Shown here in pieces: positions 3,160 through 48,147 of a stretch of 64,000 nucleotides of DNA. Origin of the DNA: Heptranchias perlo (lineage: Eukaryota). Below the pieces are notes generated by a model. It was not told the DNA's origin, searched no databases, and saw nothing but the letters and a program-made list of their open reading frames with translations. Location: positions 80,910,001 to 80,974,000 of the forward strand of contig NC_090332.1 of the NCBI RefSeq assembly GCF_035084215.1. The letters run 5' to 3'. Each line of letters opens with the position of its first letter. Position 1 is the stretch's first letter. Position numbers and translations under genes: made by a program.

Positions 3160-6100
3160 GGTCCTGCAGGCAGATTTTAAGGAGTTGGAAAGAGATTAAC
3201 AAACAGGACCTCAAAGGTAGCAATCTCTGGATTACTCCCGATGCCAGGTGCTAGCGAGTATAGAAATAGGAGGATAGAGCAGATGAATGTGTGGCTGGAG
3301 AGATAGTGCAGGAGGGAGGGCTTTAGTTTCCTGGGGCATTGCAACCAGTTCTGAGGGAGGGGACCTGTACAGGCCGGACGGGTTGCACCTCAACGGAGCT
3401 GGGACCAATGTCCTCACGGGGAGGTTCGCTAGTGCTGTGGGTGGTGGGGTTTAAACTAATTTGGCAGGGGGATGGGCACCAGGATGTAGCATTGGAAAGG
3501 AGAAAAAAGGTGTACAAAGGATTGGGAGAGAAAGATAGCACTAGAATAAGAAATAGTACAGTATTAGGTAGGATCAGACTAAGAGAGAGTAAAAGAAAGT
3601 CTAAGATTGGTTTACAGTGCACGTGTGTAAACTCACAAAGCATGGTAAACAAGGTTGGTGAGCTGCAGGCGCAAATAACCACATGGCAATATGATATCAT
3701 GGCGATAACGGAGACCTGGCTCAAAAAAGGACAGGATTGGGTACTAAATATTCCTGGATACAAGGTGTTCAGGAAAGATAGGGAAGGAAAGAAAGGAGGG
3801 GGAGGGTGGCAATATTGATTAAGGAGATTATTGCAGTGCTGGAGAGAAAGGATGTCCTTGAGGGGTCAAGGACAGAATCTATTTGGTTAGAGTTGAGAAA
3901 TAATAGAGGTGCCATTAAACTACTGGGTGTATTCTATAGGCCACCAACTAGTGGGAAGAATATAGAGGAGCAAATTTGCAGGGAAATTACAGAGAGGTGC
4001 AAAAGCCATAGAGTAGTGATAATGGGGGACTTCAACTATCCTAATATAGACTGATATATATCGACTAATATATAGACTGATATTGACTAATATATATCCT
4101 AATATATAAGTGGCAAAGAGGGGGAGGAATTTTTCAAGTGTGTTCAGGAGATCTTTCTTGACCAGTATGCTTCCAGCCCAATAAGGAAGGAGGCATTGCT
4201 GGATTTGGTTCTGGGGAATGAGGTGGGCCAAGTGGAGCAAGTGTCAGTGGGGGAACATTTAAGTAACAGCGATCATAGTATCATAAGGTTTAGAATAGCT
4301 ATGGAAAAGGACATGAATCATTCTAAAGTAAAAATACTCAATTGGAGGAGGGCCAATTTCAGTGGGATGAGAACAGATCTGGCCCGGGTAAATTGGAATC
4401 AAAGGTTGCCAGGCAAAGCTGTAATTGAACAATGGGCGGCCTTTAAGGACAAGATGGTTCGGGTACAGTCTGGGTACATTCCCACGAGGAAGAAAGGTAG
4501 GGCAACTAAAGCCAGAGCTCCCTGGATAACAAAAGAGATGGAGAGTAAGATAAAGCAGAAAAAGGGGTGTATGACAGATGTCAAGTTGATAGCAGAAGTG
4601 AGAACCAGGCTGAATATAGAAAGTTCAGAGGGGAAATGATAAAGGAAATAAGAGGGGCAAAGAGAGAGTATGAGAATAGATTGGTGGCCAACATGAAAGG
4701 GAATCGAAAAATCTTCTATAGACATGTAAACAGTAAACGGGTAGTAAGAAGAGGTGTGGGGCCGATTAGGGACCAAAAAGGAGATCTACTCATGGAGGCA
4801 GAGGGCATGGCCAAGGTACTAAATGAGTGCTTTGCATTTGTCTTTAGCAAGGAAGAAGATGCTGACAGAGTCTCAATAAAGGAAGATGTAAGTGAGATAC
4901 TGGATGGGCTAAAAATTGATAAAGAGAAGGTACTAGAAAGGTTGGCTGTACTTAAAGTGGATAAGTCATCTGGTCCGGATGGGATGCATCCTAGGTTGCT
5001 GAGAGAAGTAAGGGTGGAAATTGTGGAGGTACTGGCCATAATCTTCCAAACATCCTTAGATATGGGGGTGGTACCAGAGGACTGGAAAATTGCAAATGTT
5101 ACACCCTTGTTCTAAAAACGGTGTAAGGATAAACCCAATAACTATAGGCCAGTCAGTTTAACCTCGGCGGTGGGGAAACTTTTAGAAACTATAATCCGGG
5201 ACAGAATTAGCAGTCACTTGGACAAGTGTGGATTGATTAGGGAAAGCCAGCACGGATTTGTTAAAAGCAAATCGCGTTTAACCAACTTGATAGAGTTTTT
5301 TAATGACATAACAGAGAGGGTAGATGAGGGCAATGCAGTTGATGTGGCGTATACGGACTTTCAAAAGGCATTTGCTAAAGTGCTGCATAATAGGCTTGTC
5401 ATCAAGATTGAAGCCCATGGAATAAAAGGGGCAGTAGCAGCATGGATACAGAATTGGCTTAGTGGCAGGAAACAGGGAGTAGTGGTGAACGGTTGCTTTT
5501 CAGACTGGGGGGAGGAGTACAGTGGTGTTTCCCAGGGGTCGGTACTAGGACCACTGCTTTTCTTGATATATATTAATGACTTGGACTTGGGTGTACAGGG
5601 CACAATTTCCAAATTTGCGGATGACACAAAACTTGGAAGTGTAGTGAACAGTGAGGAGGATAGTAATAGACTTCAAGAGGATATAGACAGGCTGGTGGCA
5701 TAGGCGGACACATGGCAGATGAAATTTAACGCAGAAAAATGCGAGGTGATGCATTTCGGTAGGAAGAATGAGGAGAGGCAATATAAACTAAAGGGCACAA
5801 TTCTAAAAGGGGTACAGGAACAGAGAGACCTGGGGGTATATGTACACAATTCAGTGAGGAAGCGGTTAAAAATGTTGATAGCAGAAGTGAGAACCAGGCT
5901 GAATATAGAAAGTTCAGAGGGGGAATGAAAAAGGAAATAAGAGGGGCAAAGAGAGAGTATGAGAATAGACTGGTGGCCAACATGAAAGGGAATCGAAAAG
6001 TCTTCTATAGACATGTAAACAGTAAACGGGTAGTAAGAGGAGGGGTGGAGAAAGTGATTAAAAAAGTATACGGGATCCTGGGCTTTATAAATAGAGGCAT

Positions 6101-6680
6101 AAAGTACAAAAGCAAGGAAGTCATGATGAACCTTTATAAAACAGTGGTTCAGTTCTGGGCACCGCACTTTAGGAAGCATGTAAAGGCCTCAGAGAGGGTG
6201 CAGAAGAGATTTACTCGATTGATTCCAGGGATGAGTGATTTTAGTTACGTGGATGGATTGGAGAAGCTGGGGTTGTTCTCTTTGGAACAGAGAAGGTTGA
6301 GAGGAGATTTGATAGAGGTATTCAAAATCATGAAGGGTCTAGACAGAGTAGATAGAGAGATACTGTTCCCATTGGTGGAAGGGTCAAGAACCAGAGGACA
6401 TAGATTTAAGATGATTGCAAAAGAACCAAAGGAGATATGAGGAAAAACTTTTTTACACAGTGAGTAGTTAGGATCTGGAATGTACTGCCAGAGTGGGTGG
6501 TTGAGGCAAATTCAATCAATGCCTTCAAAAGGGAACTGGATAAATACTTGAACGGAATAAATTTGCAGGGCTATGGTGATAGGCCAGGGGAGTGGAACTA
6601 GCAAGAGTGCTCTTGCATGGAGCTGGACTCAATGGGCCAAATGGCCTCCTTCTGTGCTGTAACCTTTCTATGATTCTATG
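3160..6680 (+). mobile_element. CR1 LINE: ORF1 esterase tail, near-complete disrupted ORF2 (APE endonuclease + RT) and 3' UTR
   Basis: ORF1 SGNH-like DLYRPDGLHLN; EN motifs DIMAITETWL, GVFYRPP, MGDFNYP, SDH; RT motifs QHGF, QGSVLGP, FADD; (TTCTATGA)n tail. Multiple stops and frameshifts. Confidence 0.95.
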
Positions 6681-8094
6681 CACAGGATATCCTGCACTCA
6701 CACAGTGACAGACTCCCAATGGAAGTTATACATAGCGCTGGGAACCCATCCTGAATATTTAATTGGCCCTAACTGGGACGGGGGTACAGTGGTGGCCAGA
6801 AATCCCATTCTCACTCCAATTTCAGCAGAAACCCCACCGATGAGGAAAATCCAGGTCCTTTTCGTTTGACTGGTTCACAATATTTTCTCGGTACACAGTT
6901 CAGTGGTACTGCTGGGCCTAACTTTTTTTTCCAAGAGCTTTATATATAAAAAAATATATGTTATCATTTACAGAATGTTTGGTAAAAGGAGAAATTAAAA
7001 AGGCAAAAAATAAAATCGGACTTAAAAAAGACTTTTTTACAAATCAGCATTTCGTTGCAAACAAATTTTCAGCCGAGGCAAAAACTCCTGATGTAAGCTG
7101 TTAAATAACAGCAATAGCAAGCCTGATAATAGAGCATCAAGTGTGATAGTTTGCAAATTATTAAAACACTTAAGCATTATGTAACTTTGATTACAGGCAG
7201 CCAAAAAGCCCTTGGTAACTGCAACCAGATGCCACCAATAGTCTTTGGGATGACTTCCTCAATTGTCTTTAGAGCAGATTACCAAAAGGTCTCAGTTTCA
7301 ACAGCAATTTATATCTGATCCATTATTCACTTAACACTTTGTAACATTATATGGGTACTTGCCTCTACTGTCAAGCTCTTTGCTGTATGTCCCGCATATG
7401 AGCAACGGATGTTGATCTAGCCAAATCAAATTGATTTCCACAGAGAAAAAAGTTAAAATGGTGAAATGTTTCAAACAGTAACACTGGGTGCAATGGTGTG
7501 AATATTTGGCTGTGTAATTAATATAGAAGGGATATCACATATATTCAAAACAAACAAAATATGAGAACAGCTTCAAACCATTGATATAGCTTAATCATCC
7601 TAGAAAATGTAGTTACTGATATTTTGAATATTTGGGGGTTTTAAGGACGCCGTACTAAGTCATCCCAATACAAGTAACTTAACAAAATACATTTTTACAT
7701 ACTTTTGATTTATATTATTGTAAATTTACACATCTGAGACCAATAGCTGCAGGGCAGGTTCCAGTCAGGCAGAACAGTGTTTACATTGCCTGGCTCCTGC
7801 CTGGCTAGTACTGTCTTGCCCAGGAAAGAACTGTGTGCATGTCTGGCTACAGCATAGACAGAGCCCTCTTCCCAACATTTAAACATTTATATATGTTTAA
7901 AAAATAGGCAGAGGGAATCCCTGCTCTCTAAATGTTTACAGTGAGGTTAGGTGGGTTTACAAAGGGCCCCACAGGTTGACTGGACCCCCCTGAGCACTTT
8001 ATAAATCAGGTTTGGCACGACACTGGGTTTACAGTTCATGCGATGTCGAACCAAAATGGTGTGAGACTATTGCCCCGAAGGTGTTGCACTTTCC

Positions 8095-38193: not shown

Positions 38194-39077
38194 GGGCAGT
38201 ATTTTAACTGTGAAAAACGGGTGGGTTGGGTGCAGGGGGGCATTGAAAATTGCAACAATTTCAGACCCACCTCCAACCCGCCCATTTCCAGTTTTCACCG
38301 GGGTGGGACGAGCGGCGGGCGACTAACCTGCTCTCAGGAGGCAGGTTGGTCACTAAAACCTTTCAAGGAAGCTGCGGGTCTCCATTTTGAAAGGTTTAGC
38401 GATTTCAACCTCTGGGGGCCGGGAGTCCTGGACCTTCGCCTTCACGCCGGGCGAGAGGAGGCAAAAAGGCCCGAAACTCCAGGTAAGTGCATTTCTGGCG
38501 CAGCTTGTGGGCCCGAAGGAGCAGGAGTTCTCACCCCAGGCCCAACAAGACTACCTGCAGTGCCCCCCACCTCCCAACGATCGCAGACACCCCCAAAAAT
38601 CGTGGACCTCCACGACGACCTTGGATCCTGACCCCGACCCCCGCCCCTTGGTGACTAACCCCCCGGTAACTGACACCCAATCGCCCCCACGATGACTGAC
38701 ACCCCCATGACCCCCAATCCCCCCCACTACCATGACTGACCCCCTCCCCCATTACTGACACGCTCCCGGTGGCCCCCATGCTCACTGTGTCCCCACGCCC
38801 CCTGATGCCCACCCATGCCCCACCCCCACATCCATACAATCTAAGACTTACCTGAACACTTACCTGAAGACATCCTCTTCCTTGCTCTGCTCCCGTCCGG
38901 CTGAGACCAAACTGTCAATCAGGCCGGCCAGTCAGATGGGAAACCAACAATAAAAATAAAAGACGTCCTTAAGTCAAAACCGTAAGGACGTCCAGGAAAC
39001 CCGTACTTCTGGGTTTTCCATCCATGATTCGACCCCCCCCCCCACCCCCTTCCCGGCTCCGGGTTAAAATCCTGGCC
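38194..39077. mobile_element. Harbinger-type MITE (family A, copy 2)
   Basis: GGGCAGTATTTTAAC...GTTAAAATCCTGGCC; flanks TAT/AAT; co-linear with copies 1 and 3. Confidence 0.8.
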
Positions 39078-39349: not shown

Positions 39350-40352
39350 TCACTGAAAGCAGTGCTCTATCAACTACTCCCTGACCTCGCTGGCTGTAAT
39401 GCGTTCTGCTGGCTCTCCGTCTGGTGGTTCTCCCTCGCCTTCATCTACTTCTTCCTTGTCTGACATTGCCTCGTCTTGTTGCTGTGCCTCTTCCAACTCC
39501 AATCCCCTTAGCATTGCCAGATTGTGCAGAATGAAGCAAAGTACAATAATGCAGTCTACTTTGTCTGGGCCATACTGTACGGACCCCCACAGCAATCAAG
39601 GCACCTGAATCTTTGCTTCAAAATGCCAATGTTATGCTCTATGATGTTCCCGGTTGTCCTACGGTTCTGATTGTACCTGTGTTGCTCAGGCATGTTGGGG
39701 TTGTAGAGGGGTGTCATCAGCCAGGTGTGGAGGGGGTAACCCTTGTCTCCTAGCAGCCACCCTCTGACATTCTTGGAGTGGAAGCTCTTCCTGTTCACAT
39801 AAGCTTGTCCTCTGGTGCCCTGATACCTATATGAGTGCAGTCTATTACACGAGGGAAGCCGACCACTGCAGCAAGTCCCAGATCTCTCTCATTCTGGCTG
39901 TTGGCGTCCAATGGAAGGTAATGTACTGGTTTGCTCTGTCAAGGAGCGTATGAGTGACCTCTTTGATGCAGCTGTTCACAGCACATTGGGAGATGTGTGT
40001 AGTAGCCAGGAAGGAGCCTGTGGTGAACAAGTTAAAGGAGGTGGTGACTTTGAAAGCCAGTTGCGAAGCGTGGCCCTTTCGTTCTGCAGGCAGCAGTTCC
40101 TACTGCAACACGCTGCATGGGTCAGCAACAGCCTGCCTGGTGAAGTGCAGCCTCCTCCTGCACTGCTCCTCAGAAATATCTTGACCGATAGATCCTTTGG
40201 GCTGGGTAATGCCTTCCAGGAGCAGCTCCCTTCACCTGCTGTCTTCAAACAGGCCCAGCTGCTGCTTGTCCTGGTTGTTCAGGTTACTGCTTCTGCTCCT
40301 CTTTCTCCAGCTGTGTGTCCATTCAAAGGAGTGAAGCAAAAACGGCACCCAT
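39350..40352 (-). pseudogene. Harbinger (HARBI1-like, DDE_Tnp_4) transposase pseudogene
   Basis: [20 protein letters not shown]...[44 protein letters not shown]...ISQ; stops and frameshifts. Confidence 0.9.
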
Positions 40353-42267: not shown

Positions 42268-42376
42268 TTCTGTGCAGTACTGAGGGAATGCTGCACTGTT
42301 GAAGGTGTCATTTTTTGGATGAGACTTTAAGCCGAAGGCCCATCTGCTCTCTCAGGTGGATGTAATAGATCCCATG
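42268..42376 (+). mobile_element. Deu-domain SINE, left half (split by the LTR element; right half at 46332-46570)
   Basis: ...GATCCCATG | insert | CATGGCACTATTCGAAGAAGAGCAGGGG rejoins to match the uninterrupted copy at 30120. Confidence 0.85.
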
Positions 42377-42913
42377 TGTAAGATAATACTGTAAGAGAAT
42401 AAGATAATACTGTAAGAGAATAAAAGTAACTAGCTTATACTAAAAAATGCTCAGTGTACAATGGGTCAGATAGAAGAATGGAATATAAAAAGCACAAGAA
42501 CCAGCAGTTCTGCTGATAAGAGATCTCTCTTGATCAGGGAACAGATGTCATTCATTGAGACGGTCAGTCTGTAATCGAGCAATTGTCAGCAATAAATGTC
42601 CTGTACAAGGTAATTGTTAAAGAACGTCAAAATATGTCCCTGCCTAGCCATTGATTTTCTATTGTGTAGATGCAAATGTTGTCACTCGAGACCACATGTT
42701 TGCCCGGGAAAGTACAAAAAAGAAAACATTTTGACCAGCTCTCTTTTATCAAACAAAGGAAATAAAGATAATCCTGTTAACTGTTGCATTACTTTAAGGG
42801 CCTTTGACCTTGTTACTTGATAAATAACAAACAAAGATCAATCAAGTGAATGGGAGGAAATCCACACTTAATTGAGGCAAACAAGGACACGGTAATCTTT
42901 GTAAGAAACAAAG

Positions 42914-43043
42914 TGACGAAAGGTCTTCGACCTGAAACGTTAACTCTGTTTCTTTCTCCACAGATGCTGCCTCACTTGCTGAGCTTCTGCAGCATTTTCT
43001 GTTTTTGTTTCAGATTTCCAGCATCCGCAGTATTTTGCTTTTG
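42914..43043 (+). mobile_element. 5'-truncated hammerhead-containing repeat inserted in the LTR element leader
   Basis: TGACGA A AGGTC-TTC-GACCT GAA ACGT T AACT; first core C and the 5' strand of stem I are missing. Confidence 0.7.
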
Positions 43044-43069
43044 ACCCGGGGAAGTTGTGGTTTTGGAAG

Positions 43070-44444
43070 TGATGAGGGTGCTGAGATTAATGAGGGAGCT
43101 TTGGAGGATGTGGCGTATCATTACTATGATGATGATGCTAAGGGAGAGTACAGAACCAGGTAGAGGTGTTGTACCGTAGAGTCCACACTAATCCAGCGGG
43201 TCAAGTAATGAGTAATTGTGAGGAGGATCGCCCGATCACCCACGTAGAACAACAGACAATGGCGCAAGAGGTAGGTCCAATTAAAGACGGAAGGGACCCA
43301 TTAGAGCTCACTCAGACATTTGGGGTCTTCATCCAGGGTCATCCTGAACTTGGCGATCCAGATCTTAAGCACATAGGTTGTATGGCTTGTGTACGGACTG
43401 CAAGGGGGTGATTTTAAACCCCAAGAACGGGTGGGTTGGGGGCGGCTGGGAGTTGAAAATAGTTGTTTTTCTTGGATCACAACCGCAAAATTTTCGGACT
43501 TTGCATTCCCAGTGGGAAGCCTGTACTTTTCCGCGCTGACGTTAAACCCGGAAATAAAGCCGGGTTGCGGTCGCGACCCAAAAAAAACAACTATTTTCAA
43601 CTTCCACCCGCTCCCAACCCACCCGTTCTTGGGGTTTAAAATCACCCCCCAAGGCACGGTTGGACCCAGTGGTCTTTACCGCCGCCACTAATTCTCAAGA
43701 CATCAAAACTGCTATTCTTACAGCATTAGGAATCGGTCAGATCGATGTTTATGATGCGATTGGTAAATGTAATCAGGGACAGCAAGAGCACCCACAGGTG
43801 TTCGAGCAAAGATTGCATGAGCTGTATGTTAAGTTCCAGCTGCTGGCCCCAGTAGGGACCAATCATCGTAATCAGGAGGGATATAAGAAGTTGTTCCTCT
43901 CAAAGTTAACCCCGAAAGTTAAAATAGCCCTGGGGGTAGTAGCGAACGAAAACAGTACTTGGGCTGCAATCATGGGGGTTGTACTTCAGGCATATCAGAA
44001 TGTATGAGCCTTTGGGCCGGGGGTAATACCGGAGCAAAGCCCAAAGTGAAGTCTGAGGTCCATATGGTTGAGAGTCCGTACCCTAAAGGGGCTAGTGTAC
44101 GCAGCAGGGGTTAGAGTAGGCAACAGGTCTATGGGGCCGGACCAGGGAACAGAAATCGCCCTGGTGAGGAAGGATGTTTTAACTGTGGTAAACTGGGACA
44201 CTGGCCGAGAGATTGCCGAACTGCACCTCCTCGATCCGGGGGTGGCGGAGGTCCAGGACCGAGGTCCAACCACTCTCCTCCCTACAAACCCCCACGTCCG
44301 TCCCTCACAGATCAAAAATTGGACAAATTAATTGCGTTATTGGCTACTCAGCAATTAACTGGAGCTGGCCTCCCTCAGGTTCATTCAGTCCGGGCCTCAG
44401 CGCCAGCGCTGGAAGGCGAGCCAACTCGTCCGGGCTCACAATGA
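43070..44444 (+). pseudogene. gag: gag pseudogene (capsid MHR-like motif and CCHC zinc knuckle)
   Basis: CNQGQQEHPQVFEQRL (MHR-like); CFNCGKLGHWPRDC at 44175-44216; TGA at 44442-44444. Start position approximate; interrupted by a MITE. Confidence 0.8.
43404..43649. mobile_element. 246-bp palindromic Harbinger-type MITE
   Basis: ~80-bp imperfect TIRs starting GGGGGTGATTTTAAACCCCAAGAACGGGTGGGTTGGG; 3-bp TSD CAA. Confidence 0.92.
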
Positions 44445-46327
44445 TGGGGTTCTGGCCTCCATAAATATCCGGTACTAATGTTCCGGAGGACACGTGACAA
44501 TCGGCCTTTTGTCACTGCTGTGATCAAAGGGGACCCACAGCAGTCGTTATTAATGGATCCTGGTTCTAATGTCACTGTCTTACATACTTTACACACCTCT
44601 GACTTTGCAGGAGCCACAGGGGTTATTCATTCACTGCAAGGCTTTAACGGCTCTGTACAGCAATATATGCAATTGACTCATATTGATCTGAGTATAGATG
44701 GTATTCAGATGCGAATACCTGATCTGGTCACAATAACCATGCCAATGAATAGGGGGCTATGCATTAACCTGGTGTGGGATATTGATTGATTATATTAACC
44801 AATGTTTATGGATAAGAGATGCAATAGGACTACATCGTAATGTGTCTTCCGCGATTATATCCAATGTTTTTGTCGTGCATGCAATTAAGAAACCTGAACC
44901 GTACTCTCCCCTCACTCATTCTGACCCAGGCATTCAAGCAATCTTGGACAGATGGATGGGGTGATGGGTAAACATAAATAAGATTGTGGTAGGCTAGACA
45001 AGGAAATAAGGGTTAACGGCCCACCCCACTGTAAATGTAAACAATATCCAATTCCCATTGAGAGCTATCCTTATCTACAGGCTTCAATTGACCCTATGCT
45101 AGAGCAAAATGTGATCCATCAGGGACCATTCAGGGATCACTCACACCAATTTGACCAGTAAAGAAACCAGATTGTAGTTGGCGATGAACAATTGATCACA
45201 GGAAATTGAACTCAGTCACACCTTCGTGCGCACCTGTTGTGAGCAATTCACCCACGTTGCTGGCACAGATTCCGAGGACGGCCGAGATCTTTTCGATCCT
45301 CGATATCTCCAATGGATTCTGGAGTGTTCCAGTCCACCCGCAGGATCGGTATAAGGTCGCCTTTACTTTCAACAACCAACAATATACCGGGACAAGTTTG
45401 CCACAGTGGTTTCATAACTCCCCTGCAACCTTCCACAAGTGTATGGCATCTATACTGAAGGGATGATCTCACTCAGTCTGTTCTACAATACGTGGATGAG
45501 ATTTTGATTGCCACCAGGACACGTAAACAACATATGATAATGCTTTGGGATGTTCTGGGCAAACTAAGGTCGGCCGGTCTAAAAATCAATCCCAAGAAAG
45601 CTCAGCTACTACAATCGGAGGTATCTTTTTTGGGGATCAGTTTATCGCACCATGGAAAGATGTCTGACACCCACAAAGTGGAGATTATTACAGAGGCTAC
45701 CATTGCCAGTGTCAAAGATGGCTCTCTGATCGTTTCTGGGGCTGGTGGGGTACCAACGATCATTCATTCCACAGTTTGCAGAACTAGCTAAGCCATTGTA
45801 CAACTTACTCAAAGGAAATGATGATTCAGTTCAGCGGGATTGGATGGATAAACATACCGATGCAGTAACCGAGCTGAAGCAAGCGGTTGTGCAGGCTACG
45901 TGCTTGATTTCTCCAGACTCTAATCAGCCGTTTCACCTGGAAATGGTAGCCACATCCGTAAGCCTAGCAGCTGTATTGTGCCAGGAGGTGCACAGCCGAT
46001 TGACACCGATCGCTTATGTATCCCGCATCCTGACTGGAGTTGAGAAGACATTCGACCCATGTGAGCAACACCTTCCCGCAACCTTCTGGGCAGTCAAGCA
46101 TTTACTTATATCACCGGACTACAGACTCTGGTGTTGCATTCTCCCCACACACCTCTGGACTTGCTACTAAAGCCCGGTAACATGTTGGTTTTGTCGCAAC
46201 AACTGAACCATTGGACATTACTGCTGATGGAACGTGACCTCCAGGTCACCCTTAAAAAGACAATGCTTATTCCGCATCTTTTATTGTACCAATGGGAGTC
46301 ACACACGTGTCCCTTGCCCATCTTACA
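44445..46327 (+). pseudogene. pol: pro-pol pseudogene (protease, RT, degenerate RNase H/tether; no integrase)
   Basis: LLMDPGSNVTVL; PVKKPDCSWR*TIDHRKLN; LDISNGFWS; LPQWFHNSP; YVDE; PIAYVSRIL...CEQHL. Confidence 0.9.
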
Positions 46328-48147
46328 CATGGCACTATTCGAAGAAGAGCAGGGGAGTTCTCCCGGTGTCCTGCCCAATATTTATCCCTCAACCAACATC
46401 ACTAAAAGAGATTATCTGGTCATTATCTCATTGCTGTTTCTGGGACCTTGCTGTGAGCAAATTGGATGCCATGTTTCCCTATATTACAACAGTGAGAACG
46501 CTCCAAAATGGACATCATTGGCCGAAAAGTGCTTTGGGACATCCTGAGGTTGTGAAAGACGCTATAGAAATATTCATTGTTTTTCTTTCTTTCTTTCTGT
46601 CTTTCTGTCTTTCCCTAACCAGCTCCTCCTGACCCCACAGAAATCTTCAGGCCCAATGTTGGCCATTTAGTGGCTCTCCCCAGATTATCTCCTCCACTGT
46701 TCAGGGCATGACTTCTGGATTGGCTCTACAGAGAAGCTGCCAGATTCTCCAACCCCTCCTCAGTGGGCTCGCTGAGCGCTGGCAGCTCATCCCAAAATAC
46801 TTAGATGAAGCCTGACCATGCCCGCCAATGTTGAAAATCCCCCCCGCCCCCCACCCCTCCATTGGGACACCAGCACTATTATAGGAAGGGCTCACATCCA
46901 ATCGGAGGTGTGGGTATGGGGATGGTGATGGGAACAGTGGTCTGATAGATTTGCTTTCCCTCTTTAAAGTGTATTTCATTGTGACATGTTCTGCACTTTT
47001 CTCTTAACTAAAGTAACTGGTTGTGGAGGCAGTTGCCGATGTTAACACTGGAAATGTGACTTCCTGGTTAAAACAATTACCACAAGTTTTTGTTTTTGGT
47101 TATTGCAAAATCTTTTTTACTGTTAAGAACAACCTGCAATGACCTTGTAACAATGATTTATGTAAAGTGACAAAGCAGTAGTGTTATTTAATCGATATTT
47201 TTAACTACTTTCAATGATTAATTTATCACTTAAAAGTATTCATATTGAGAAGAGGGATGTAGCATTCCATTAAGTATAATGATTTTGAATTTTAAACTTG
47301 AAAAACATCGACACGACAGTGTTCAAACATAGAACATGGAAGAGAGAGAGATAGATAGAGAGAGAACACAGAAACTGCCAAATGCTTCTAACAGTACAAG
47401 AGTTCTGATTTGTTCACCTAAAACTTGTTTTTATTGGTTCCAAGGATAAAATGTTGGGAAAAAGTCGTCAATAGCAACCACTCTGAAATGATAAGGAGGA
47501 AGTGAGTCAGCTTCTACCATTGCTTACTTTTCTGCCTAATGAAAGGAAGTAGGAGGCGGAAAATGTGCCATGGCAAGATTTAATCTTCGTTAGTCCTTAA
47601 GGACATCATCGGAGCAGAAATGGGTTAAAACAAACACGACCAGATGCCCTATTTACTGTATGAAAAAGCACTGAAAAAGCAGAACACTAACCATTTTCAG
47701 AACAGCAAAGCAGCCTTAATTACAATATTTCAACCAACAACTATATGTATAATGCATGACCCCCAAACATGACATCTCTATAATTCTCTACTACTCTAAT
47801 GTTTAATTCACATTTTAATGAACTTCTTTAAAGCAACAGCAGGTGATTTAATGCTTTTGAACCGTATGATACGTGAGTTGTATTTATTGTCAAGTTTCGC
47901 TGATAACGATGCGTTATGATAAGAAGTATTCTGAATATCCTTTAAAAAACTTTATGACATAAATATTCCAATTAAGGGGGGAAGATTTCTTCTATGCACT
48001 AAGTGGAGCAACATCATAAAGCTGGTCCATATAAATGCATTTACGGTTTTGCTACACTTAGTGTACGGAGGAAATCTTTCTTCATGGTATTCCAGCTTTT
48101 GAATTTTACCCTTGCTTATATTATCTGTAGACTTAGCACAAGATATT

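What the first reader, a model, noticed from the sequence alone, without database searches (positions are those of the whole stretch)
42377..46327. Basal retrovirus-like element (loki/foamy-like RT with MHR+CCHC Gag and dead RNase H tether) in a probable shark genome
Seen: Gag has an MHR-like motif (NQGQQEHPQVFEQRL) and a CX2CX4HX4C knuckle. RT reads PVKKPDxSWRxTIDxRKLN / LDISNGFWS / AFTFxxQQY / LPQxFHNSP / YVD(E). The following RNase H-like block reads FHLEMVAT where Ty3/Gypsy has catalytic F-x-L-x-TDAS. Established: DxxNGFW, LPQGFxNSP and YVDD resemble foamy virus RT; foamy Gag lacks MHR and CCHC; a dead RNase H tether followed by a second RNase H marks Retroviridae and their sister lokiretroviruses. 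Inference: this is a loki-like or otherwise basal retrovirus rather than an ordinary Gypsy. As I recall, lokiretroviruses were described from lampreys, bony fish, amphibians and reptiles, so a cartilaginous-fish member would be notable; I cannot verify that host range or the host species here.
Basis: partly seen in the sequence, partly recalled or inferred. Interest (0 to 1): 0.75.

Follow-up and report, generated by a model that had tools for sequence, protein, structure and literature searches.

The report
Truncated deep-branching shark retrovirus, not loki
This is a dead, half-length retrovirus fossil in a shark-type genome that groups with ordinary retroviruses, likely near the snakehead-fish virus, rather than with lokiretroviruses; its relatives carry an envelope predicted to fold like measles/RSV fusion proteins, and worn fragments that group with true lokiretroviruses lie elsewhere in the same genome.

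Summary
Motifs and coordinates check out. 42377-46327 is a broken provirus: partial LTR, gag (MHR-like motif, one CCHC), in-frame stop, protease, RT, non-catalytic tether. It stops inside pol. Siblings (80-87% nt) continue into a second RNase H, integrase, env and a 3' LTR, so it is not Gypsy. The host is an elasmobranch (RAG1).

It is not a lokiretrovirus. RT+tether trees place it inside Retroviridae (100/99), AU tests reject loki (p 1e-4) and Gypsy, and it lacks the loki RT signature. It is a deep-branching class III-type ERV, closest to a Xenopus ERV and resembling snakehead retrovirus; such ERVs are reported in cartilaginous fish. A strict clade with SnRV was not recovered.

Three extras. 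(1) The group's Env is predicted F-like and aligns to loki Env; its second RNase H groups with loki and foamy. (2) The copy sits between 4-bp duplications and ends at a 10-nt mimic of its own LTR end inside pol, likely an integration at a cryptic att site. (3) Four degraded RT loci elsewhere in this genome nest in lokiretroviruses, where a 6-genome screen found none. The scan noted the SnRV-like/F-Env reading, and once the loki fragments, in other genomes.

The parts
42373..42376 (+). left target-site duplication CATG
   Evidence: The host repeat is split here. Left and right flanks are contiguous, with a 4-nt overlap, in other copies of that repeat (L033 1453/1450, L048 4948/4945, window 30129/30126).
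42377..42912 (+). 5' LTR, U3-side part only (starts TGTAAGAT; 21-nt tandem duplication at its start)
   Evidence: Matches both LTRs of two-LTR siblings at 72-87%; the sibling LTR at C3 is about 930 nt.
42914..43043 (.). host repeat fragment (SINE-like; label recalled) standing where about 1.1 kb of LTR end, primer site and leader is missing
   Evidence: 10 further hits in fetched DNA; sibling C3 positions 6084-7194 have no counterpart.
43044..44444 (+). gag remnant with MHR-like motif (43771-43815), one CCHC knuckle (44175-44216), in-frame TGA at 44442-44444
   Evidence: the TGA is kept in 9 of 11 siblings.
43404..43649 (.). MITE inserted in gag, 85-nt terminal inverted repeats, CAA on both sides
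   Evidence: 92% complementary arms; absent from siblings; other copies in the window and loci.
44445..44900 (+). protease remnant, in frame behind the gag stop (LMDPGS at 44550)
   Evidence: No Pfam hit itself; 80-85% nt to siblings; the related copy L020 gives RVP E 0.0013, under the cut-off. End approximate.
44961..45720 (+). reverse transcriptase, broken
   Evidence: RVT_1 on two pieces; tblastn; breaks counted. Ends approximate.
45840..46240 (+). tether (degenerate first RNase H); FHLEMVAT where Gypsy has TDAS
   Evidence: RT_RNaseH_2 E 3.6e-21; motif comparison. Ends approximate.
46320..46327 (+). right end ATCTTACA inside pol, the reverse complement of the LTR start
   Evidence: Siblings read on as ATCTTACA|GT, which equals the reverse complement of AC|TGTAAGAT at their 3' LTR start.
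46328..46331 (+). right target-site duplication CATG; host repeat resumes
   Evidence: 4-bp duplications also flank sibling proviruses.

Best explanation
The locus is a dead, 3'-truncated endogenous retrovirus whose RT groups inside Retroviridae and outside lokiretroviruses, likely a member of the class III, snakehead-retrovirus-like ('clade Huo') assemblage, and it likely entered the germline in truncated form when integrase used a look-alike of the LTR end inside pol. Shown: domain order and decay; siblings with tether, second RNase H, integrase, env and two LTRs; 4-bp duplications; tRNA-Arg primer site; in-frame gag stop; tree position. Inferred from known retroviral biology: the parent virus primed on tRNA-Arg, made Gag-Pro-Pol by reading through the TGA, used the second RNase H for catalysis with the first as a connection domain, and entered cells with an F-type class I fusion Env (predicted fold, from a stingray relative). 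Inferred for this copy: integrase joined the normal U3 end and the internal mimic to one target site. The copy was dead on arrival and later took a MITE, a host-repeat-associated deletion, frameshifts and stops.
For: Tree: RT+tether, 38 rows, LG+G4: the window lies in a 28-row retrovirus clade 100/99, with loki apart 100/100; same under LG+C20, 26 rows. AU rejects loki+window group (p 1.3e-4) and Gypsy+window group (p 1.6e-122). Closest named rows: Xenopus tropicalis P0007 (100/100), then frog and coelacanth 'NYNRIN-like' Pols. Anchors: P0026 matches the SnRV row, and P0029/P0034 resemble the Loki-Aro/Loki-Oja rows of Wang & Han's supplement, compared by eye. Architecture: sibling L022 has RNase_H (E 5.5e-9) then Integrase_H2C2 (E 2e-8) behind the tether; env-profile hits lie on 6 of 16 B/C-family stretches. 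SnRV-like traits: one zinc finger and stop read-through (PMC1224870 passages; seen in L095). The primer site of sibling C3 matches this genome's tRNA-Arg(CCG) 18 of 18. Env: Foldseek best hits are RSV/hPIV3 F (E 5e-11), with foamy Env at E 5e-7. Ends: exact 4-bp duplications at 5 sibling or related proviruses and near-exact at 3 more, of 9 LTR pairs read. The 8-mer occurs once in the roughly 9-kb interiors of C3 and C13. Of 29 other loci, 23 read straight on, 3 resume after a local change and 3 break earlier at a shared deletion; none ends there.
Against: A clade of SnRV with this group is weak in RT-only trees (UFBoot 42-60) and rejected in the RT+tether set (p 0.013), so 'SnRV-like' names a grade, not a shown clade. 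The second RNase H groups with loki+foamy, not SnRV (95/94), and the integrase tree leaves loki among these elements. Family-A Gag has no significant BLAST match to SnRV Gag (E 0.55). My reference set had no class II, HERV-L/S, Odin, CmiERV or published Huo sequences. The Env model is of a stingray protein (pLDDT 62, pTM 0.43; TM 0.2-0.3 by query). A post-integration deletion over the 3-nt ACA shared with the true U5 end would leave the same right junction. One sibling (L083) has a short deletion starting within 5 nt of the site without the mimic.
Confidence: 0.85

Rival explanations
1. It is a true lokiretrovirus, the first in a cartilaginous fish.
For: Dual RNase H; Env homologous to loki Env (hhalign 98%, E 2e-13; 69 bits against at most 6.5 in 500 shuffles); second RNase H groups with loki+foamy; integrase unresolved with loki.
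Against: Loki is defined by RT position. The RT signature is absent, AU p 1.3e-4. A loki RT-core query matches this group at 35-47% but other loci of this genome at 50-60%, and those nest in loki 100/99 while the window does not.
Confidence: 0.04
2. It is an unnamed lineage, distinct from both SnRV/clade Huo and loki, near the root of Retroviridae, which kept RNase H, integrase and Env modules shared with loki (or passed them to loki).
For: The group branches second from the root of Retroviridae in both RT+tether trees; forced grouping with SnRV is rejected; RNase H, integrase and Env lean to loki; its Env profile scores loki Env far above SnRV Env (98% vs 78%).
Against: Deep nodes are weak (84-90) and SnRV is a long branch. 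Clade Huo is reported from all vertebrate groups and CmiERV lineage I clusters with SnRV, so the group is probably already sampled there. Not tested against those sequences. This refines the best explanation more than it excludes it.
Confidence: 0.3
3. The provirus integrated whole and later lost its 3' half by deletion between pol and the end of the 3' LTR.
For: Both the cryptic site and the true U5 end finish in ACA, so the junction cannot be told apart by sequence; deletions are common in this family.
Against: It needs one breakpoint within 3 nt of the LTR end, sparing the duplication, and the other at the only LTR-end mimic in about 9 kb.
Confidence: 0.25
4. It is an ordinary Ty3/Gypsy element or a foamy-like ERV.
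For: DxxNGFW and LPQGF resemble foamy RT; Pfam RT_RNaseH families are shared with Gypsy.
Against: No TDAS; second RNase H and env in siblings; AU rejects Gypsy; never grouped with equine foamy virus RT; has a CCHC, which spumaviruses lack.
Confidence: 0.02

Closest known systems
Snakehead retrovirus and clade Huo / class III ERVs (Xu 2018 PMC6001957, passages and section 7; CmiERV lineage I, Han 2015 PMC4422223, whole text)
   Same: RT motifs LDISNGFWS / LPQGFH / LQYVD, one CCHC, in-frame gag-pol stop, tether plus second RNase H, weakly homologous F-type Env, deep position in Retroviridae; cartilaginous fish are known hosts.
   Different: No supported RT clade with SnRV itself; TGA rather than TAG; RNase H groups with loki+foamy; SnRV Env is much longer and SnRV has an extra 3' frame. 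Not compared with CmiERV-I or Huo sequences.
Lokiretroviruses (Wang & Han PMC7947760: parts 1-3 of 4 of the text, supplement parts 8 and 68 and search passages; renamed lokiorterviruses in PMC9040795, passages)
   Same: Dual RNase H; Env homologous and F-like; second RNase H in the same group.
   Different: RT lacks the PFGY signature and lies outside the loki clade (AU p 1e-4).
Database 'protein NYNRIN-like' Pols of frogs, coelacanth and ostrich; Xenopus tropicalis P0007/P0008
   Same: Best protein matches (54-59% over window RT and tether pieces); same domain string; sister to the window family in RT, RNase H and integrase trees.
   Different: Automatic labels, not a described family; different hosts.
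Foamy viruses (Env structure PMC11468914, abstract and passages)
   Same: F-like Env fold; second RNase H in the same group; DxxNGFW motif.
   Different: Foamy Gag has no zinc finger and Pol is made separately; RT does not group with them.

Membership tests
Lokiretrovirus | RT in the clade sister to canonical retroviruses | tested here: not met
   loki anchors labelled by eye from the supplement.
Lokiretrovirus | RT signature (C/T)PFGYxNSP...YVDD seen in the 5 Loki rows read in full | tested here: not met
Lokiretrovirus | Tether plus second RNase H | tested here: met
   Siblings; not in the window copy, which ends before it.
Lokiretrovirus | Env similar to Mononegavirales F | tested here: met
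   For the group. The model is of a stingray homologue; family-B env pieces match the same profile (best E 4e-57).
Retroviridae (canonical) | RT inside the retrovirus clade | tested here: met
   100/99; class II and ERV-L/S references were missing.
Retroviridae (canonical) | LTR-gag-pro-pol-env-LTR, tRNA primer site, short duplication | tested here: met
   Siblings C3, C1, C13.
SnRV-like / clade Huo | Supported clade with SnRV in Pol/RT trees | tested here: inconclusive
   UFBoot 42-60 in RT; AU p 0.013 against in RT+tether.
SnRV-like / clade Huo | One zinc finger; gag-pol stop read-through layout | tested here: met
   read-through itself is inferred.
SnRV-like / clade Huo | Grouping with Xu 2018 Huo consensus set and CmiERV lineage I | not testable with these tools
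Ty3/Gypsy | Catalytic TDAS RNase H directly before integrase, no env | tested here: not met
Spumaretrovirinae | RT groups with foamy viruses; Gag without CCHC | tested here: not met
   One foamy reference only (P0108).
Odin retrotransposons | Dual RNase H without env, sister to loki | tested here: not met
   Env present in siblings; no Odin sequence was in the trees.

The most novel reading that the evidence does not exclude
This shark family belongs to a basal retrovirus group that pairs a canonical retroviral RT with an RNase H, integrase and F-type Env homologous to those of lokiretroviruses. The F-type Env would then be ancestral to, or exchanged between, loki and canonical retroviruses, against the independent-acquisition model preferred in PMC9040795. 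Sharks also carry degraded true lokiretroviruses.
Probability: 0.45. Interest if true: 0.65.

Novelty: new member of a known kind. Interest (0 to 1): 0.4.

Why it matters
The locus itself is one of many dead class III-type ERVs in sharks. Its family matters for the origin of retroviral Env: Wang & Han found no significant overall similarity between loki Env and retrovirus Env and prefer separate acquisitions. Here a group with canonical RT has an Env that aligns to loki Env, weakly to SnRV Env, and is predicted to share the F fold already shown for foamy Env. So F-like Env is not a loki hallmark and makes a single old origin testable. Separately, loki-type fossils in this genome would extend that group to cartilaginous fish (0 of 6 genomes in the original screen). 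The copy's ends offer a natural example of likely integration at a cryptic att site.

Tried and rejected
Pfam and PDB sequence searches with Env found nothing useful; only profiles and the fold search did. The Env word search returned 1 protein. Atlas hits for the stingray Env were all under the 0.9 bar, so leads only. The Gag profile found nothing in PDB and only modest hits to retroviral capsid regions among 120 proteins (best E 4.7e-8), so the MHR call is moderate. A whole-Pol loki query returned only the window's wider group (35-40%) and missed the loki fragments; the short RT-core query found them. I first read family A as an intact lokiretrovirus; the tree and the authors' alignment overturned that. 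The SnRV genome paper (PMC190236) is not held, so the tRNA identity of the SnRV primer site (Arg) is recalled, not tested, and not used as evidence. PMC9447858 had none of my six terms. Rows left out: 2 of 134 (short match); 71 of 132 RT rows kept; hand-picked subsets of 38, 26, 34, 27 and 32 rows. Absolute dating was rejected as unreliable: the rate assumed in PMC4422223 and the mammalian rate differ tenfold.
Full report
Verdict. The element is a real, dead, 3'-truncated endogenous retrovirus of a shark or ray. It is not a lokiretrovirus, a foamy virus or a Gypsy element. It is a deep-branching, class III-type member of Retroviridae. Interest 0.4.

Observation. Pfam gives zf-CCHC, RVT_1 on two pieces and RT_RNaseH_2. 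Read with X at each break, RT plus tether has 4 frameshifts and 5 stops. The element runs from 42377 to 46327, between two copies of CATG. The flanks are two halves of one host repeat, contiguous with a 4-nt overlap in at least three other copies. Inside, a host repeat fragment stands where about 1.1 kb of LTR, primer site and leader is missing, and a MITE interrupts gag. Nothing of the 3' half is in the window.

Host. This genome's RAG1 is 88-92% identical to six shark and ray proteins and at most 82% to the other 114 of 120 listed. I did not go below elasmobranch level.

Family. A tether query scored 150 of 1705 candidates; a 198-nt DNA query found 39 other copies at 79-91%. Siblings continue past the window's end into RNase_H, integrase, env and a second LTR. 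LTR pairs of six B/C copies differ by 0.06-0.095 (K2P), and the window differs from five siblings by about 0.13 in pol. A related family A has LTR pairs at 0.011-0.023. No shark rate is known, so I give no age. Target duplications are 4 bp: exact in 5 and near-exact in 3 of 9 LTR pairs read. The primer site of sibling C3 is the 18-nt complement of this genome's tRNA-Arg(CCG) 3' end with CCA added. The in-frame TGA between gag and protease is kept in 9 of 11 siblings and in family A; read-through is inferred.

Placement. I used 120 database Pols as references. The supplement of Wang & Han gave labels by eye: P0026 matches their SnRV row, and P0029 and P0034 resemble Loki-Aro and Loki-Oja. Loki RTs carry (C/T)PFGYxNSP; the window's group carries LPQxFHNSP. 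In RT+tether trees the window lies inside a retrovirus clade with 100/99 support, loki forms its own clade 100/100, and the nearest named row is a Xenopus tropicalis Pol, then frog and coelacanth 'NYNRIN-like' proteins. AU tests reject grouping with loki (p 1.3e-4) and Gypsy. Against a neat label: grouping with SnRV is weak in RT alone and rejected in RT+tether (p 0.013). The set held one foamy virus and no class II, ERV-L/S, Odin or published Huo sequences. One zinc finger and a read-through layout match SnRV (PMC1224870 passages; L095).

What is shared with loki. The second RNase H groups with loki and foamy rather than SnRV and class I (95/94, 149 columns). The integrase tree is poorly resolved and places loki among these elements. 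An Env profile from family A and a stingray protein found 45 relatives. One, P0285, resembles a Loki Env printed in the supplement and hits Pfam Fusion_gly (E 4.7e-6, under the cut-off). The 24-row Env alignment aligns to it at 98% (69 bits against at most 6.5 for 500 shuffles) and to SnRV Env at 78%. A moderate AlphaFold model of the stingray protein (pLDDT 62) matches RSV, hPIV3 and henipavirus F (E 5e-11), foamy Env and walleye-virus Env. Family-B env remnants match the same profile (E 4e-57). So F-like Env does not define loki. Foamy Env is already known to share this fold (PMC11468914, abstract and passages).

How this copy likely formed. Its right end, ATCTTACA, lies in pol. Siblings of its subfamily read ATCTTACA|GT there, the exact reverse complement of AC|TGTAAGAT at the start of their 3' LTR. 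That is the unprocessed U3 end, with the GT that retroviral integrases remove (established knowledge, recalled). The 8-mer occurs once in about 9 kb of two sibling interiors. Of 29 other loci, 23 read on, 3 resume after an insertion, short deletion or repeat expansion, and 3 break earlier at a shared deletion; none ends there. With an intact 4-bp duplication, the simplest reading is integration through a cryptic att site (about 70%). A later deletion over the ACA shared with the true U5 end gives the same junction (about 25%). How an internal DNA end arose is not shown.

True loki in this shark. A short loki RT-core query found four loci at 50-60% identity, above the 35-47% of the other 146 scored hits. 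They nest in loki 100/99, sit among host repeats, and loki-type Env fragments lie beside loki-type pol pieces at other loci. Wang & Han found loki in 0 of 6 chondrichthyan genomes. These loci are outside the finding.

Literature. Class III and SnRV-related ERVs are known in cartilaginous fish (PMC4422223, whole text; PMC6001957, section 7 and passages; PMC11089739 passages: most shark ERV RTs are clade III). My searches for loki with shark terms and for SnRV-type Env with paramyxovirus terms found no paper reporting shark lokiretroviruses or an F-like Env in this group. The library lacks most subscription papers, including the SnRV genome paper and the Cell foamy-virus structure paper, and bioRxiv supplements were closed, so absence from print is not established. 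Other papers were seen as passages only (PMC12440569, PMC12287698, PMC8922424, PMC9040795, PMC10435555, PMC12583693, two preprints); PMC9447858 returned no passage. The scan itself reached the SnRV-like/F-Env reading in other genomes, and once noted loki fragments. I saw those notes after my own tests, and they are not independent support.

Scores. Canonical deep-branching class III-type ERV 0.85; lokiretrovirus 0.04; Gypsy or foamy 0.02. Novelty: new member of a known kind. Most novel open reading: shared or exchanged RNase H, integrase and Env between loki and basal retroviruses, probability 0.45, interest 0.65.

Noticed in passing
G000 C6:98.78M (L096), C8:53.56M (L097), C1:87.85M (L099), C5:87.75M (L114/L115); also L124, L125, L127: Degraded RT loci, three with the loki PFG/PFR-Y motif; the four placed in a tree nest in lokiretroviruses 100/99. 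They lie among repeats shared with the window, which argues against contamination. Their read-through was guided by a loki protein, which may pull them toward loki; the C6 hit is a single frame.
   Followed up: partly
L116-L120 (C31, C25, C2, C8, C15): Decayed fragments similar to loki Env (best E 7e-26) and not to the window group's Env; three lie next to loki-type pol pieces.
   Followed up: partly
L016, L018, L058, L060: A younger related family (A) with gag, pol and env frames, LTR pairs 1-2% apart, coiled-coil Gag N-terminus and TGA-CGG junction; well over 50 hits. Its primer site looks like tRNA-Asn (recalled, untested).
   Followed up: partly
L061, L062 and about 45 similar hits: A further multi-copy family of the same RT type with long pol frames.
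   Followed up: no
L021, L029, L031, L033, L034: Five copies share one internal deletion from the tether to just before the 3' LTR and have shorter LTRs: an amplified non-autonomous subfamily.
   Followed up: partly
P0241 (Hypanus sabinus LOC132401028): A 745-aa open Env of this group annotated as a stingray gene, 50% identical to family-A Env; a young provirus or a co-opted gene, not examined.
   Followed up: no
Walleye epsilonretrovirus Env models also match the F-like model (E 5e-9).
   Followed up: no
L027/L042 (C8:19.73M): A 2607-nt 100% identical tandem duplication inside a sibling provirus; recent duplication or assembly artefact.
   Followed up: no
L025 (C1:32.65M): A tandem expansion of a roughly 30-nt pol segment inside a sibling.
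   Followed up: no
window 39556-39888 (-): Harbinger-type DDE_Tnp_4 transposase fragment (E 1.2e-11); related MITE ends at 38201, 43411, 57254.
   Followed up: no
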